Below, piece by piece: positions 7,058 through 38,009 of a DNA stretch of 38,030 nucleotides (within the stretch, counting starts at the first letter, position 1; every line of letters begins with the position of its first letter). The stretch covers positions 1-38,030 of the IMG/VR virus record IMGVR_UViG_3300038492_000288; one strand, 5' to 3'. The notes beneath the pieces are model-generated. The model saw only the letters and a program-made list of their open reading frames with translations, did no database searches and was not told the origin of the DNA. The translations under genes were made by a program, and so were the position numbers. This DNA comes from a virus. Taxonomy: Duplodnaviria; Caudoviricetes.

Positions 7058-7543
7058 TTACTTGCCGTGTTCTTTCATCAGCTCGAGCGCCATTTCTTTG
7101 ATGTCCTCGGGCAATCCGACATCCTTCAGATCCAGTTTGAATGCTTCGGATCTTGCTTCCTGCCACAGTTTAAATAAAAAATAAGCCGCCCTGGATTCGC
7201 TGTATATTTCTTTCTGGCCGCTCATGTCGCGGATTGGCAATGTGAATAACCCGGCTTCCATCATCATGATGTGAGTCTCGGAAATCGAGCGCGTTATATA
7301 CTCCCATCGCGATTCTTCGAAGTCTGGATCTTTGCCGGGATTGTCGAGTACATCATGGCAGGCGCTGCAGCATATACCCGCGATCCTGTCATCGGCCTTG
7401 AGACCCATTCCGAATGCACCAATCACACTGAAATGCGCGAGGACAGATGTTTCTTTGTCGTTGGTACAAACGTTGGCGATCCGCATCGTGCACGGCTTTC
7501 CCTTGGCGAACCGAGTATACTTTGTCTGCCTGATCTTGCTCAC
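7058..7543 (-). CDS. DUF1364/YbcO-like nuclease-domain protein
   Basis: AKGKPCTMR...C...ETSVLAH...GMGLKADD...CSACHD; GTG start with GGAGG SD overlaps the MTase stop. Confidence 0.8.
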   Translation of the reverse strand: MSKIRQTKYTRFAKGKPCTMRIANVCTNDKETSVLAHFSVIGAFGMGLKADDRIAGICCSACHDVLDNPGKDPDFEESRWEYITRSISETHIMMMEAGLFTLPIRDMSGQKEIYSESRAAYFLFKLWQEARSEAFKLDLKDVGLPEDIKEMALELMKEHGK

Positions 7544-8562
7544 AGTATATCCTCCGTCAGTACATTCCATGCTGCTGCAGCCACTGCAGGTACCATTCCA
7601 TTTCCAGTGGCTGTAAGCCTGTGTGACCGATAGGCCACCCCATTAGCCACTCCACGAATTCCGGGTTCAGCATCCCACCGGGTGACTCTCCCGACCTTAA
7701 AAGTGCACCGGGTATGTTGTCCCTCGTGACCTGGCTCTTCGGAAGTGTCGCGTTGCCTGCATCGTCGACTGTTGGAGTCGGATACATCATCACATGGTGT
7801 GCCAGTGTGAATTGTCGGCCCGATTCCTTCCGTTCCTGCAGCTTCTCTGGTGTGTGATGGAATGAGAACTTCGCATCTGCTGTGTTCGGTGTCGGAAATT
7901 CTGGATCCCGTCTCGCGACTTCTGACTTCAGGCTTTTCCTGTTCGTCCTGATGTTGTACTTCGCCTCGGCCATCATGCTGGATCGATCCGAGTCCTGAGT
8001 TGTCGGCGTTGGCCACATCTCTTTTGACTGCGACAATCCAGATTCTCTCACGAATGTGATTCGCTCCAACATCGGCTGCTGATAAAGTGCACCATCGAGC
8101 ATCATACCCGCCCTCGGATAGGTCTCGCAGAATCTCTCCGTAGTAGTAAACAGATCCGTCTGTGCCGTTATCCATGTGGGCGCTGAGCAATCCTCGAACG
8201 TTTTCAAGGAAGCAAAAGGCTGGACTGACTCGGCGTATTGTCTCCATGGTCTCAGGCCATTTGTTTCGTTCGTCATCTGCTGCCTGGCGACGTCCTGCGA
8301 GTGAGAAAGGCTGGCAGGGGAATCCTGCGGTGATGACATCAACCATTCCCTTATATGCGTCGGCGTACCCTTGATCGATGAATGCGCCGATATCGCTGAA
8401 AATTGGTGCAGGGTCGAAGATGCCGTCTTTGATTCTTTGCGCGATGATTCGCTGTGGATATTCGCTGTATTCGACATACCCTTTTGTCCTCCATCCGAGG
8501 AGCTTGGAGGCAAGGACACCGCCTCCAGCACCTGTGTAAAGTGATAGCTCATTCACTTGCAT
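7540..8562 (-). CDS. C5-cytosine DNA methyltransferase, alpha polypeptide (motifs I-VIII and X)
   Basis: SLYTGAGG (I), GFPCQPFS (IV), ENV (VI), HIRERIW (VIII), GNG (X); GGAG SD before ATG 8562. Confidence 0.9.
   Translation of the reverse strand: MQVNELSLYTGAGGGVLASKLLGWRTKGYVEYSEYPQRIIAQRIKDGIFDPAPIFSDIGAFIDQGYADAYKGMVDVITAGFPCQPFSLAGRRQAADDERNKWPETMETIRRVSPAFCFLENVRGLLSAHMDNGTDGSVYYYGEILRDLSEGGYDARWCTLSAADVGANHIRERIWIVAVKRDVANADNSGLGSIQHDGRGEVQHQDEQEKPEVRSRETGSRISDTEHSRCEVLIPSHTREAAGTEGIGPTIHTGTPCDDVSDSNSRRCRQRDTSEEPGHEGQHTRCTFKVGRVTRWDAEPGIRGVANGVAYRSHRLTATGNGMVPAVAAAAWNVLTEDIL
7557..8552 (-). CDS. C5-methyltransferase beta polypeptide nested in an alternative frame (PTP repeats and motif IX)
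   Basis: 331 open codons; WPTP/FPTP/YPTP repeats; LNPEFVEWLMGWP motif IX; ATGA coupling with the upstream gene. Confidence 0.8.
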   Translation of the reverse strand: MSYHFTQVLEAVSLPPSSSDGGQKGMSNTANIHSESSRKESKTASSTLHQFSAISAHSSIKGTPTHIREWLMSSPQDSPASLSHSQDVARQQMTNETNGLRPWRQYAESVQPFASLKTFEDCSAPTWITAQTDLFTTTERFCETYPRAGMMLDGALYQQPMLERITFVRESGLSQSKEMWPTPTTQDSDRSSMMAEAKYNIRTNRKSLKSEVARRDPEFPTPNTADAKFSFHHTPEKLQERKESGRQFTLAHHVMMYPTPTVDDAGNATLPKSQVTRDNIPGALLRSGESPGGMLNPEFVEWLMGWPIGHTGLQPLEMEWYLQWLQQHGMY

Positions 8563-8890
8563 AACTCCAGACGAGCCTTGGCAGGCTGTTTTGTTTGCCT
8601 GCGTTTTCGTATGGTGTGAGCGCAAACCGCCATGCTTTGTGTTCTGGTCTCAGTGGCATGTGACTTACTTCCAGCCTTGCTTCGTCACCTGTTTCCGTTA
8701 TGACTTGTGCTGATAATCCATGCACCTGTGTTTCTGATGACATGGACATCATGCTGCTCAGGATCACGTACTCTTTGATCGTAATTTCTTCGCTGAAAAA
8801 TGATAAAAACTTATTCAGGACAGTGTTTGCATTTTTGAGTAGGTAGTTTTCGAACTTGATGTCACATGGGTTTGATATTGCATAGCTCAT
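8549..8890 (-). CDS. Hypothetical protein
   Basis: 113-aa ORF with ATGA overlaps at both ends; AT-richer than its neighbours. Confidence 0.6.
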   Translation of the reverse strand: MSYAISNPCDIKFENYLLKNANTVLNKFLSFFSEEITIKEYVILSSMMSMSSETQVHGLSAQVITETGDEARLEVSHMPLRPEHKAWRFALTPYENAGKQNSLPRLVWSYASE

Positions 8891-36223: not shown

Positions 36224-36691
36224 TCAGAAGCCTTCAAAGTCATCTTCTTCATCGGCTGTCTGGCCATCGAGGGGAGGCTCTGCGGATAGGCCAGCGCGTG
36301 CTGAAGGCGTCATTCCGAACTCCAGCATCATCTTGCGCATGTTCTCGAACTGTTTGTTCGCGATTCCTACGTACGGGTTCTGGTAAACAGTCTTGTTCTT
36401 GCTGACAACGACGAGACCGATTTCTTCGATCTTATCGATTGCCTCGCGCCACATGCTGTATGCCTTGCAGTACATCTCGAGCGCGGTGTAGTCGATCTCT
36501 GTCAACAGTCCGCATCGATGGAGCTCCCGCGAAACCTTACGCCAGTGTCGCTTGGTGCGGTTGTCGAGGTACTTCGGTGGGTTCTTGACTGTAGGAGCTT
36601 TCTTCGGTTGCGCTTCCGTTTTGTCAATCTTCCGCTTGCCTGGATTGCCTCCAAGCAGTTTCAGATGTGTTGGTTTACGCTTTGCGCCCAC
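36224..36691 (-). CDS. terS: Terminase small subunit, P27 family
   Basis: KPT.LKLL.GNPGKR, QNP, EFGMTPSARA. Confidence 0.95.
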   Translation of the reverse strand: MGAKRKPTHLKLLGGNPGKRKIDKTEAQPKKAPTVKNPPKYLDNRTKRHWRKVSRELHRCGLLTEIDYTALEMYCKAYSMWREAIDKIEEIGLVVVSKNKTVYQNPYVGIANKQFENMRKMMLEFGMTPSARAGLSAEPPLDGQTADEEDDFEGF

Positions 36692-38009
36692 GTTTCTTTA
36701 CCTCGTCGAACGTTTGACCAGTCTGTGCAAGCGTGGCTTCAAATCCAGTGAATTGCTGCCATCGATCAACTATCACATCTGTGAACCTCGGCTCGTACTC
36801 AATGAGGCGTGCTGATCGGCCCGCTTTCTCACATGCTATCAGAGTGGATCCGCTGCCGCCAAAGGCATCAAGGACGAGAGCACCCGGGCGAGAGCTGTTT
36901 TCGATCATCTCCTGAACCAGTTCGACTGGCTTCATCGTCGGGTGTTCCTTGTTCTTTGATGGCTTGTCGACGTGGATCACGTCCTCTGGTTTCATCTCGA
37001 TTATGCGCTCGAGGAGATCCACAAGATCCCGTTTGGACAGCTTGCTCACATCCAGTTCTGGATCCTCGATCACTGTGTTCAATGTGAAGTCTTTGCAGAA
37101 GTAGTGGCCCGCGCCTGGAGACCATCCGTAAAGGATCGGCTCGTGTCTCCAGTTGTAATCCTGCCTGCTCAGTGCCGCTGCCGACTTGACCCACACGAGA
37201 GTCTGCTTGTGCATAAAGCCTGCGTTGATAAATGCCCGGATGAACTGTGCGGCTGTGGTTTCCGCGTGCGCAACGTAGATCACACCGCCTGGCTTGTTGT
37301 TTTCGTTCATCCAGTGGAAGGCCTCGAACAGGAACTTTTCAAAGGCTGTGTCTTCCATGTTGTCATTTTCGATCTTCAGCTTTTCTTCCGTGCCGCCTTC
37401 GTAGTCCACGTTGTAGGGTGGGTCTGTCCAGATCATATCTGTCTTGTCGCCCTGCAGCAGATCCACGTACGTGTTCTCGCGTGTTGAGTCTCCGCATATT
37501 ACGCGGTGCCGGCCGAGGATCCAGACATCACCGGGAATGGTCACAGGCGTCTTTTTGACAGACGGGATCTTGTCGTCGTCGATCTTTCCTTCCTCGACCC
37601 TATCTGGAGCCAAAAGCTGCGCGATTTCATTCTCGTTGAAGAGGATGTGTCTCGCGTCCATGCCCATATCCACCAGCTCTGTGGTTTCTTCCATCAGCAT
37701 CTGGTTGTCCCATCCGGCCATGTCGCTGGTTTTGTTGTGTGCGATGAGGTATCCGCGTGATTCCATGTCATCGAGGTGCCCGAGTTCAATGATCGGGATC
37801 TGCTTCATCTTCAATAGCTGCGCGGCTCTCCAGCGTCCCTCGCCTACGATGATCGTGCCGTCTGATCTGACTTGGCATGGGTCGTTGAAACCGTAGCGCT
37901 TGATGGACCTGGCTATGGCCTCGATCTGTTTTTTGCTGTGAGTTCGGCTGTTCTTCTCAAAAGGCTTGAGACTGGTGGTCTCGACGTGTTTTATGCGTGC
38001 TTTGGTCAT
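36675..38009 (-). CDS. ParB-domain / DNA amino-methyltransferase fusion (beta class)
   Basis: N.RTHS..QI..IA.SI..YGF.DP (ParB); TDPPYNV; HPTMKP; LDAFGGSGSTL. Confidence 0.92.
   Translation of the reverse strand: MTKARIKHVETTSLKPFEKNSRTHSKKQIEAIARSIKRYGFNDPCQVRSDGTIIVGEGRWRAAQLLKMKQIPIIELGHLDDMESRGYLIAHNKTSDMAGWDNQMLMEETTELVDMGMDARHILFNENEIAQLLAPDRVEEGKIDDDKIPSVKKTPVTIPGDVWILGRHRVICGDSTRENTYVDLLQGDKTDMIWTDPPYNVDYEGGTEEKLKIENDNMEDTAFEKFLFEAFHWMNENNKPGGVIYVAHAETTAAQFIRAFINAGFMHKQTLVWVKSAAALSRQDYNWRHEPILYGWSPGAGHYFCKDFTLNTVIEDPELDVSKLSKRDLVDLLERIIEMKPEDVIHVDKPSKNKEHPTMKPVELVQEMIENSSRPGALVLDAFGGSGSTLIACEKAGRSARLIEYEPRFTDVIVDRWQQFTGFEATLAQTGQTFDEVKKRGRKA

What the first reader, a model, noticed from the sequence alone, without database searches (positions are those of the whole stretch)
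7540..8562. About 1 kb coding in two frames: split C5-methyltransferase with a nested partner chain
Seen: two same-strand frames start 10 nt apart and stop 17 nt apart. One has motifs I, IV, VI, VIII and X but a featureless stretch where the target-recognition domain and motif IX belong; the other supplies PTP elements and LNPEFVEWLMGWP (motif IX) over that same DNA. Each has a translation signal (GGAG SD; ATGA coupling). Established: M.EcoHK31I is a heterodimer whose beta chain with motif IX is encoded in an alternative frame inside the alpha gene. Unusual here: the nested frame is open along nearly the whole gene (331 aa).
Basis: partly seen in the sequence, partly recalled or inferred. Interest (0 to 1): 0.7.

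Follow-up and report, generated by a model that had tools for sequence, protein, structure and literature searches.

The report
Two-frame phage methylase with swappable cassettes
One 1-kb phage gene is open and conserved in two overlapping reading frames that likely make the two chains of a single DNA cytosine methylase, and the hidden chain carries three short cassettes of a kind that related phages gain, lose and swap and that are predicted to read DNA target sites; the two-frame layout is known from one E. coli enzyme and is common in phages.

Summary
Real, and not chance. Window 8556-7540 (-) encodes a C5 cytosine methyltransferase chain (alpha: motifs I, IV, VI, VIII, X); its +1 frame (8552 or 8477 to 7557) encodes a second chain (beta). 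In 84 non-redundant relatives, beta's frame has 0 stops over alpha's catalytic core against 361 expected; single-chain controls show 122 against 122. The predicted complex scores 0.86, best control 0.00. The long overlap is the family norm, not peculiar to this phage; the family is huge (10,266 clusters at E<=1e-30). Against an M.EcoHK31I-type locus: same frame, homologous hairpin, but a separate lineage with a much longer overlap, a different motif IX, and an unconserved alpha linker. Beta instead carries 0-6 W/F/Y-PTP modules, selected in the beta frame, that are gained, lost and swapped between relatives (three here). They likely read DNA, perhaps several sites: untested. This scan already reported the same family on at least nine other genomes. 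New variant of a known kind.

The parts
7540..8556 (-). alpha chain, C5 cytosine methyltransferase catalytic chain (338 aa from GTG 8556; 340 aa from ATG 8562)
   Evidence: PF00145 and PHROG 363; start context and SD energy -5.9 vs -3.0; relatives start at the same codon
8565..8568 (-). GGAG Shine-Dalgarno site, 8 nt before GTG 8556
   Evidence: sequence
8518..8544 (-). alpha motif I (SAM binding)
   Evidence: conserved in alignment A1; motif label from general knowledge
8302..8325 (-). alpha motif IV with catalytic Pro-Cys (Cys83)
   Evidence: invariant in A1; aligns with M.HhaI motif IV
8197..8205 (-). alpha motif VI (ENV)
8032..8058 (-). alpha motif VIII (HxRxR)
7678..8031 (-). alpha linker: open but unconserved, polar, variable in length; lies over the beta modules
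   Evidence: 35% identity between homologous module pairs against 70% for beta; open in 214 of 235 loci, 5.9 expected
7588..7620 (-). alpha motif X (GNGxV)
7557..8552 (-). beta chain in the +1 frame (331 aa from ATG 8552; 306 aa from Met26 at 8477)
   Evidence: PHROG 1008, 508 homologues, stop depletion
8475..8492 (-). likely beta initiation site: GGAGG (8492-8488) and ATG (8477-8475) inside alpha's G-W-R-T-K-G-Y-V codons
   Evidence: SD energy -9.3; ATG at this codon in 55 of 79 close relatives; SD stronger than synonymous expectation in 43 of 55
8073..8120 (-). beta hairpin (residues 145-160, Y/W-P-x-x-G-M-x-x-x-G), on the same DNA as alpha 148-163
   Evidence: selected beyond what alpha forces; homologous in EcoHK31I-type beta; predicted contact with alpha 156-158
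7899..8015 (-). beta module 1 (W-PTP, residues 180-218); no close match among 598 modules
7785..7898 (-). beta module 2 (F-PTP, residues 219-256); no close match among 598 modules
7671..7784 (-). beta module 3 (Y-PTP, residues 257-294); same type in 8 loci whose catalytic cores are only 40-47% identical
7614..7670 (-). beta motif IX variant (LNPxxVEWLMGWP..GxT)
   Evidence: register with the canonical motif IX of the EcoHK31I-type beta by eye; predicted contact with alpha 38-46 and motif X
8549..8890 (-). upstream 113-codon ORF whose stop overlaps beta Met1 (ATGA); no family hit

Best explanation
This gene is open and under selection in two same-strand frames, which likely give two separately initiated chains that are predicted to assemble into one DNA cytosine-C5 methyltransferase of a lambda-like temperate phage, with the catalytic motifs on alpha and motif IX plus the likely DNA-reading modules on beta. 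Shown by sequence comparison: both frames are kept open across hundreds of relatives; alpha is conserved over motifs I-VIII and X, beta over a hairpin, the modules and motif IX; selection switches frame after motif VIII; the modules are gained, lost and exchanged whole. Predicted: alpha and beta bind, beta's hairpin pairing with alpha's strand at 156-158 and beta's motif IX packing on alpha 38-46 and motif X. Inferred: alpha starts at GTG 8556 and beta mostly at Met26 (8477); alpha's linker is a passive loop that only has to carry the ribosome to motif X; the three W/F/Y-PTP modules sit where the target-recognition domain of a one-chain enzyme sits and are its functional equivalent; the enzyme methylates phage DNA against host restriction. 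Odds by step: two chains, one enzyme about 0.9; recognition on beta about 0.7; one site per module (multispecific) about 0.4.
For:: over alpha's core (motif IV-12 to VIII), +1-frame stops 0 vs 361 expected in 84 non-redundant loci fetched by alpha motifs and classed by a +1-frame motif IX; +2 frame 421 vs 468; 20 single-chain controls 122 vs 122; 49 of 67 unclassified loci are also open (1.8 expected); 201 of 205 loci with this motif IX have it in the +1 frame; alpha open across the module array in 214 of 235 loci, 5.9 expected; differences in homologous modules fall on beta's third codon position (0.088/0.055/0.286, 197 pairs); identity beta 0.70 vs alpha 0.35 in modules, alpha 0.70 vs beta 0.44 in the core; beta W145, P146, G149 exceed what alpha's codons force (72 vs 42%, 55 vs 16%, 60 vs 27%, 153 loci); complex score 0.86, best control 0.00 (mark reached by 116 of 157 solved complexes and 2 of 215 mismatched pairs, only roughly valid with own alignments; runs agree in at least 54% of contacts; partner pLDDT at least 59). 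EcoHK31I-type beta is in the same frame and matches the beta profile over the hairpin (E 8e-7, three sequences searched); removal of 42 or more residues of that beta abolishes activity in vitro (PMC2836561); the one-chain relative L257 has moved the hairpin in-frame behind motif VIII; of 85 pairs with cores 90% or more identical, only 16 have the same module array; 323 pairs under 55% identical share a module.
Against: No expression, protein or methylation data were obtained. The module profile finds nothing in the two phi3T methyltransferases or in the EcoHK31I-type chains, so there is no sequence link to a proven recognition domain. For M.EcoHK31I the literature places the predicted recognition domain in alpha. 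Beta has no relative among solved structures and folds poorly alone (pLDDT 56, pTM 0.27); in the complex modules 1 and 2 (residues 180-256) are almost absent from the confident interface and no DNA was modelled. The family's motif IX lacks the canonical RxQ residues and PF00145 does not score beta. Three of 236 loci have no module by my pattern. Loci are related, so counts are not independent events.
Confidence: 0.68

Rival explanations
1. Two chains and one enzyme, but the modules together form one recognition surface for a single (perhaps short or degenerate) site, or only the last module is used and the others are a silent reservoir for recombination.
For: 41 of 236 loci have one module; some module types occur almost only in the last position (11 of 11; 8 of 9 for the type of window module 3); no sequence likeness to phi3T recognition domains.
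Against: Many types occur first, middle and last; modules show purifying selection in the beta frame pooled over all positions; close relatives differ by whole modules.
Confidence: 0.35
2. One polypeptide made by programmed frameshifting from alpha into beta after motif VIII (and back before motif X).
For: The order I-VIII, variable region, IX, X along the DNA is that of a one-chain enzyme; P0167, L170 and L195 carry alpha's core and the modules in one frame.
Against: Beta's frame is stop-free and selected far upstream of motif VIII, and its hairpin is encoded by the same bases as alpha 148-163, which one ribosome pass cannot read twice; slippery runs between motif VIII and the first module in 13 of 153 loci, no more than background 0.12, none in the window; alpha stays open through the array; M.EcoHK31I works from two separate genes.
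Confidence: 0.05
3. Recognition resides in alpha's variable region, as proposed for M.EcoHK31I, and beta is only a structural chain that supplies motif IX.
For: Literature on M.EcoHK31I; the EcoHK31I-type alpha has a Thr-Leu element in its variable region (read by eye).
Against: In this family alpha's linker is unconserved, rich in G, R, S, E, A and poor in hydrophobic residues, and varies at its first codon position as a passenger of beta; in 15 of 236 loci, and in phiBT1 and DaVinci, alpha ends after motif VIII while beta keeps the modules and takes motif X.
Confidence: 0.07
4. The nested frame is a by-product of alpha's codons, or the gene is a decayed methylase.
For: Beta's first 75 residues are Ser/Thr-rich and largely dictated by alpha; for the window alone 7% of recodings leave the core open.
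Against: all catalytic residues of alpha are intact.
Confidence: 0.02

Closest known systems
M.EcoHK31I (E. coli, YGGCCR), alpha/beta C5 methyltransferase; read through PMC2836561 (passages, section 13, supplement text) and PMC3404938 (passages); sequence from an E. coli chromosome locus L450 found with a published primer
   Same: Beta nested in the +1 frame of alpha; motifs I-VIII and X on alpha, IX on beta; homologous beta hairpin on the DNA of alpha motif VII; several in-frame Met starts for beta.
   Different: Separate branch on the core tree; beta 176 aa from alpha codon 104 against 306-331 aa from codon 4 or 29; canonical motif IX and an L-S-Q-V-L-E stalk instead of LNPxxVEWLMGWP and WPTP modules; recognition domain predicted on alpha; paired with a NotI-family nuclease, whereas the window gene has no restriction-enzyme hit among the neighbours scanned.
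M.AquI (CYCGRG), two-chain C5 methyltransferase (PMC3404938, passage)
   Same: Two polypeptides; small chain carries part of the variable region and motif IX. 15 of 236 relatives also put motif X on beta, as M.AquI does.
   Different: In the window motif X is on alpha. That M.AquI's genes are not nested is recalled, not checked; its sequence was not compared.
Multispecific Bacillus phage methyltransferases (phi3T, SPR, rho11, H2; PMC8936443, passage; phi3T sequences in L447)
   Same: Phage C5 methyltransferases with tandem modules between motifs VIII and IX; the likely functional analogy.
   Different: One chain, one frame (18-60 stops in the other frames); the module profile does not match them; their specificities are proven, these are not.
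PHROG 363 / PHROG 1008 phage 'DNA methyltransferase' families
   Same: Alpha and beta fall in these two families; both frames are annotated as two methylases in several mycobacteriophage, Paenibacillus and Streptomyces phage records.
   Different: The libraries do not link the two as one enzyme; beta is unannotated in ABMM1, Xenia and phiBT1, the last marked 'may be inactive'.

Membership tests
C5 cytosine DNA methyltransferases (PF00145) | Motifs I, IV (Pro-Cys), VI (ENV), VIII, X intact | tested here: met
C5 cytosine DNA methyltransferases (PF00145) | Motif IX present | tested here: inconclusive
   A divergent motif in beta aligns by eye with the canonical one and packs on motif X in the model, but PF00145 does not score it
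C5 cytosine DNA methyltransferases (PF00145) | Makes 5-methylcytosine in DNA | not testable with these tools
   no methylation data
M.EcoHK31I-type heterodimer | Beta encoded wholly inside alpha in the +1 frame | tested here: met
M.EcoHK31I-type heterodimer | I-VIII and X on alpha, IX on beta | tested here: met
M.EcoHK31I-type heterodimer | Beta homologous to EcoHK31I beta | tested here: inconclusive
   hairpin region only, E 8e-7 among three sequences; partly a shadow of alpha homology; modules and stalk differ
M.EcoHK31I-type heterodimer | Recognition domain on alpha | tested here: not met
   alpha linker unconserved and a passenger of beta; a conservation test, not an assay
M.EcoHK31I-type heterodimer | Both chains needed for activity and they associate | not testable with these tools
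   predicted only
M.EcoHK31I-type heterodimer | Part of a type II restriction-modification pair | tested here: not met
   neighbours are NinB, an HTH protein, a YbcO-type HNH protein and a lysozyme
Multispecific phage C5 methyltransferases (phi3T/SPR type) | Tandem exchangeable modules between motifs VIII and IX | tested here: met
Multispecific phage C5 methyltransferases (phi3T/SPR type) | Modules homologous to known recognition domains, in a single chain | tested here: not met
Multispecific phage C5 methyltransferases (phi3T/SPR type) | Each module confers one target sequence | not testable with these tools
   needs module deletions and methylome sequencing

The most novel reading that the evidence does not exclude
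A very large, mostly mis-annotated family of phage methyltransferases keeps a cassette array of single-site recognition modules in the hidden frame of a fully double-coded gene; phages reprogram which host restriction sites they protect by gaining, losing and trading 30-50-residue cassettes, giving a natural library of hundreds of plug-in DNA-reading modules. The window enzyme would mark three different sites.
Probability: 0.4. Interest if true: 0.75.

Novelty: new variant of a known kind. Interest (0 to 1): 0.5.

Why it matters
It turns a one-enzyme curiosity from 1995 into one of the largest families of long same-strand overlapping genes in phages, with selection handing over from one frame to the other along the gene and with two contacting segments read from the same bases. 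Annotation usually misses beta, so these enzymes look truncated or inactive. If the modules each read a site, they are a testable route by which phages retune anti-restriction methylation, and a source of modular specificities. This window is an ordinary member of the family.

Tried and rejected
Single-protein scans of viral contigs found no close relative; alignments were needed. Solved-structure search with the beta profile gave only a spurious repeat hit. The ESM Atlas lists only unnamed clusters. AlphaFold of beta alone was weak and of the one-chain relative P0167 without an alignment useless (pLDDT 33), so no fold search was run and the place of the modules relative to DNA is not modelled. 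No RNA holder listed; contigs of three DNA runs showed no joint that skips a module. Plasmid hits L321 and L322 were fetched as EcoHK31I candidates: L321 has no long nested frame and both were used as one-chain rows or dropped. The published primer found nothing in plasmids or phages. Word counts in the window do not reveal the target site. The two ShiLan papers (passages) describe an out-of-frame HNH, not a nested methylase chain. The frameshifting review (passages; first 300,000 of 449,034 characters held) does not mention such an enzyme. Rejected: frameshift fusion, by-product frame, recognition on alpha, and 'unusually long nested frame'. The 'zero stops in alpha' figure for the Xa class is circular and was replaced.

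Full report
Observation. The two frames are there. Alpha matches PF00145 over residues 6-221 and PHROG 363; beta matches PHROG 1008 and nothing in Pfam, NCBIfam or PADLOC. The window is a lambda-like temperate phage: terminase, portal, Clp protease and capsid genes, and around the finding O- and P-like replication genes, a resolvase, NinB, an HTH protein, a YbcO-type HNH protein and a lysozyme. No restriction enzyme was found among the 22 proteins scanned, so the methyltransferase looks orphan.

Family size. Alpha has at least 4,051 homologues among 7,995 candidates scored, beta 508 among 2,047. A profile of 46 beta sequences hits 47,536 representatives of 50%-identity clusters at E 0.001 and 10,266 at 1e-30; the profile includes motif X columns, so the weaker hits may include ordinary chains.

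Both frames are selected. From 320 loci plus the window, 205 carried the beta-type motif IX downstream of a motif IV; 201 had it in the +1 frame, 3 in frame, 1 in +2; 24 had a canonical one-chain layout, 86 no recognised motif IX and 6 no motif IV (rows include repeat contigs). After reduction to 196 representatives under 85% identity, 84 dual loci fetched by alpha motifs had 0 stops in the +1 frame over the catalytic core against 361 expected from synonymous recoding, while their +2 frame (421 vs 468) and 20 one-chain controls (122 vs 122) were as expected; 49 of 67 unclassified loci were also open, and most of these carry a variant motif IX and PTP modules in the +1 frame (read by eye). Conversely, alpha stays open over the module array in 214 of 235 loci against 5.9 expected. 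In the core, alpha is the better conserved chain (0.70 vs 0.44 identity, 3,437 pairs); in the modules beta is (0.70 vs 0.35, 815 pairs), and differences there pile on beta's third codon position. Inside the core several beta residues still exceed what alpha forces, above all the W-P-x-x-G hairpin (153 loci). Relatedness means these counts are not independent events, but the controls share that weakness.

Starts. Close relatives begin alpha at the codon that is GTG 8556 here; it has the GGAG at 8 nt, whereas ATG 8562 has it at 2 nt. In 79 close relatives the +1 frame has 54 stops (92 expected) before alpha's G-Y-V codons, 17 (213) from there to motif IV and 1 (174) beyond; 55 of 79 have an ATG at the position of beta Met26, made by choosing TAT for that tyrosine (55 of 79, against 16 of 79 at a tyrosine six codons on), with a stronger Shine-Dalgarno than recoding gives in 43 of 55. 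In the window it is GGAGG, -9.3 kcal/mol, against -5.9 for Met1. Met1, coupled by ATGA to the upstream ORF, may also be used: 39 of 79 keep the first zone open against 20 expected. So beta is 306 or 331 residues. A frame this long is normal: 121 of 236 loci reach 300 codons (this set was filtered for a frame open from motif IV).

Two chains, one enzyme (predicted). The complex scored 0.86 against a best control of 0.00; the mark was reached by 116 of 157 solved complexes and 2 of 215 mismatched pairs, roughly valid only, since my own alignments were used; runs agree in at least 54% of contacts, partner pLDDT at least 59. Halves of a split enzyme can pass by likeness to solved one-chain enzymes, though beta has no sequence relative in the PDB. 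The surest contacts are beta 310-315 on alpha 38-46, beta 297-306 on motif X, and beta 148-150 on alpha 156-158, the last two segments being read from nearly the same bases. Beta alone folds poorly. A frameshift fusion cannot use both readings of the hairpin DNA, and there is no excess of slippery runs (13 of 153). L257, nested inside the family tree, is a natural single chain that has moved the hairpin behind motif VIII while the +1 copy has stops: one case, but it suggests the segment is needed.

Modules. Among 236 unique complete dual loci the array holds 0-6 modules (3, 41, 76, 67, 31, 11, 7), median 38 residues, each opening W/F/Y/L-P-T-P. 598 modules fall into 239 groups, 166 of them singletons; the largest group is chained and not one type. 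Of 85 pairs with cores at least 90% identical only 16 have the same array and 46 differ in number; 323 pairs under 55% share a module (splitting by pattern has some errors). Window module 3 is shared with 8 loci of 40-47% core identity; modules 1 and 2 have no match; none of the ten nearest cores shares a module. Position, size, exchange and selection suggest recognition domains, as in the multispecific Bacillus phage enzymes (PMC8936443, passage), but the module profile matches neither phi3T enzyme. The function is therefore an analogy.

Relation to M.EcoHK31I. PMC2836561 and PMC3404938 (passages) state that beta is nested, carries motif IX, is required, and that the predicted recognition domain is on alpha. 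A locus found with a published primer (81 of 5,426 E. coli genomes) gives a 309-residue alpha and a 176-residue beta whose ends fit the paper's primers; I take it as EcoHK31I-type. Its beta is in the +1 frame, starts at alpha codon 104, shares the hairpin, and has a canonical motif IX and no modules. On a quick tree of 117 cores, the 74 PTP-type rows form one side of a branch (SH-aLRT 96, no bootstrap, midpoint root) with the EcoHK31I-type row just outside; moves of motif X to beta need 9 changes, at least 3 forced by strong branches (60 nested-type representatives were drawn at random, unclassified loci left out). The window enzyme works like M.EcoHK31I but is not filed as a member.

Novelty. 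Ten literature searches (open-licence PMC and bioRxiv only) found no description of the phage family or its modules; the original EcoHK31I papers, subscription journals, REBASE and Figure S1 of PMC2836561 (a picture) were not seen, so a prior report cannot be excluded. This scan has reported the same family on at least nine other genomes; my reading was written down before those notes were opened, and they are not independent support. Motif labels I-X and the anti-restriction role of orphan phage methylases rest partly on general knowledge (the latter also PMC9957025, passage).

Verdict. A real, strongly selected double-coded gene; likely a two-chain phage C5 methyltransferase with exchangeable, probably DNA-reading modules on the nested chain. 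New variant of a known kind; interest 0.5, or 0.75 if each module proves to add a target site (probability 0.4).

Noticed in passing
window, whole: GGWCC is strongly avoided (3 found, 40 expected, both strands); TCCGGA, GCGCGC, CGATCG, CCWGG and CTAG less so. Suggests host restriction at sites the phage methylases do not cover.
   Followed up: no
window 36675-38009 (-): A second, unrelated orphan methylase: ParB domain fused to an N6/N4 methyltransferase, just upstream of the terminase genes.
   Followed up: no
window 7540-7555 (-): The YbcO-type gene probably starts at GTG 7543, overlapping alpha's stop (GTGA) with GGAGG 7 nt upstream, rather than at ATG 7570; this would couple it to complete translation of alpha.
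   Followed up: partly
window 8150-8190 (-): Alpha's loop insertion after motif VI (about residues 127-138) encodes beta's W-x-T-x-Q motif, which most relatives have some ten codons earlier; the insertion may exist for beta's sake.
   Followed up: partly
L203, L206, L235, L224: A third double-coded layout: motifs IX and X stay on alpha, and the +1 frame carries the hairpin and an L-x-D-I-L...K-Y-F-L-S stalk; these rows fall among one-chain enzymes on the tree.
   Followed up: partly
L448:715-1765 (phiBT1, NC_004664.2): gp9.1 is annotated 'may be inactive', but an unannotated +1 frame holds hairpin, two modules, motif IX and motif X: a cultured model for testing.
   Followed up: partly
L323:1189-2188 (mycobacteriophage DaVinci): Short-overlap form: alpha ends after motif VIII and the beta frame opens only 45 codons after motif IV; annotated gp86 is a truncated call of it.
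   Followed up: partly
L257; P0167; L170; L195: One-frame derivatives: L257 is a complete single chain; P0167, L170 and L195 join the core to modules and motif IX but lack motif X in that frame (natural switch or sequence error not resolved).
   Followed up: partly
L355, L368: Two matches of the alpha pattern 1.4 kb apart on one contig, perhaps tandem methylase genes.
   Followed up: no
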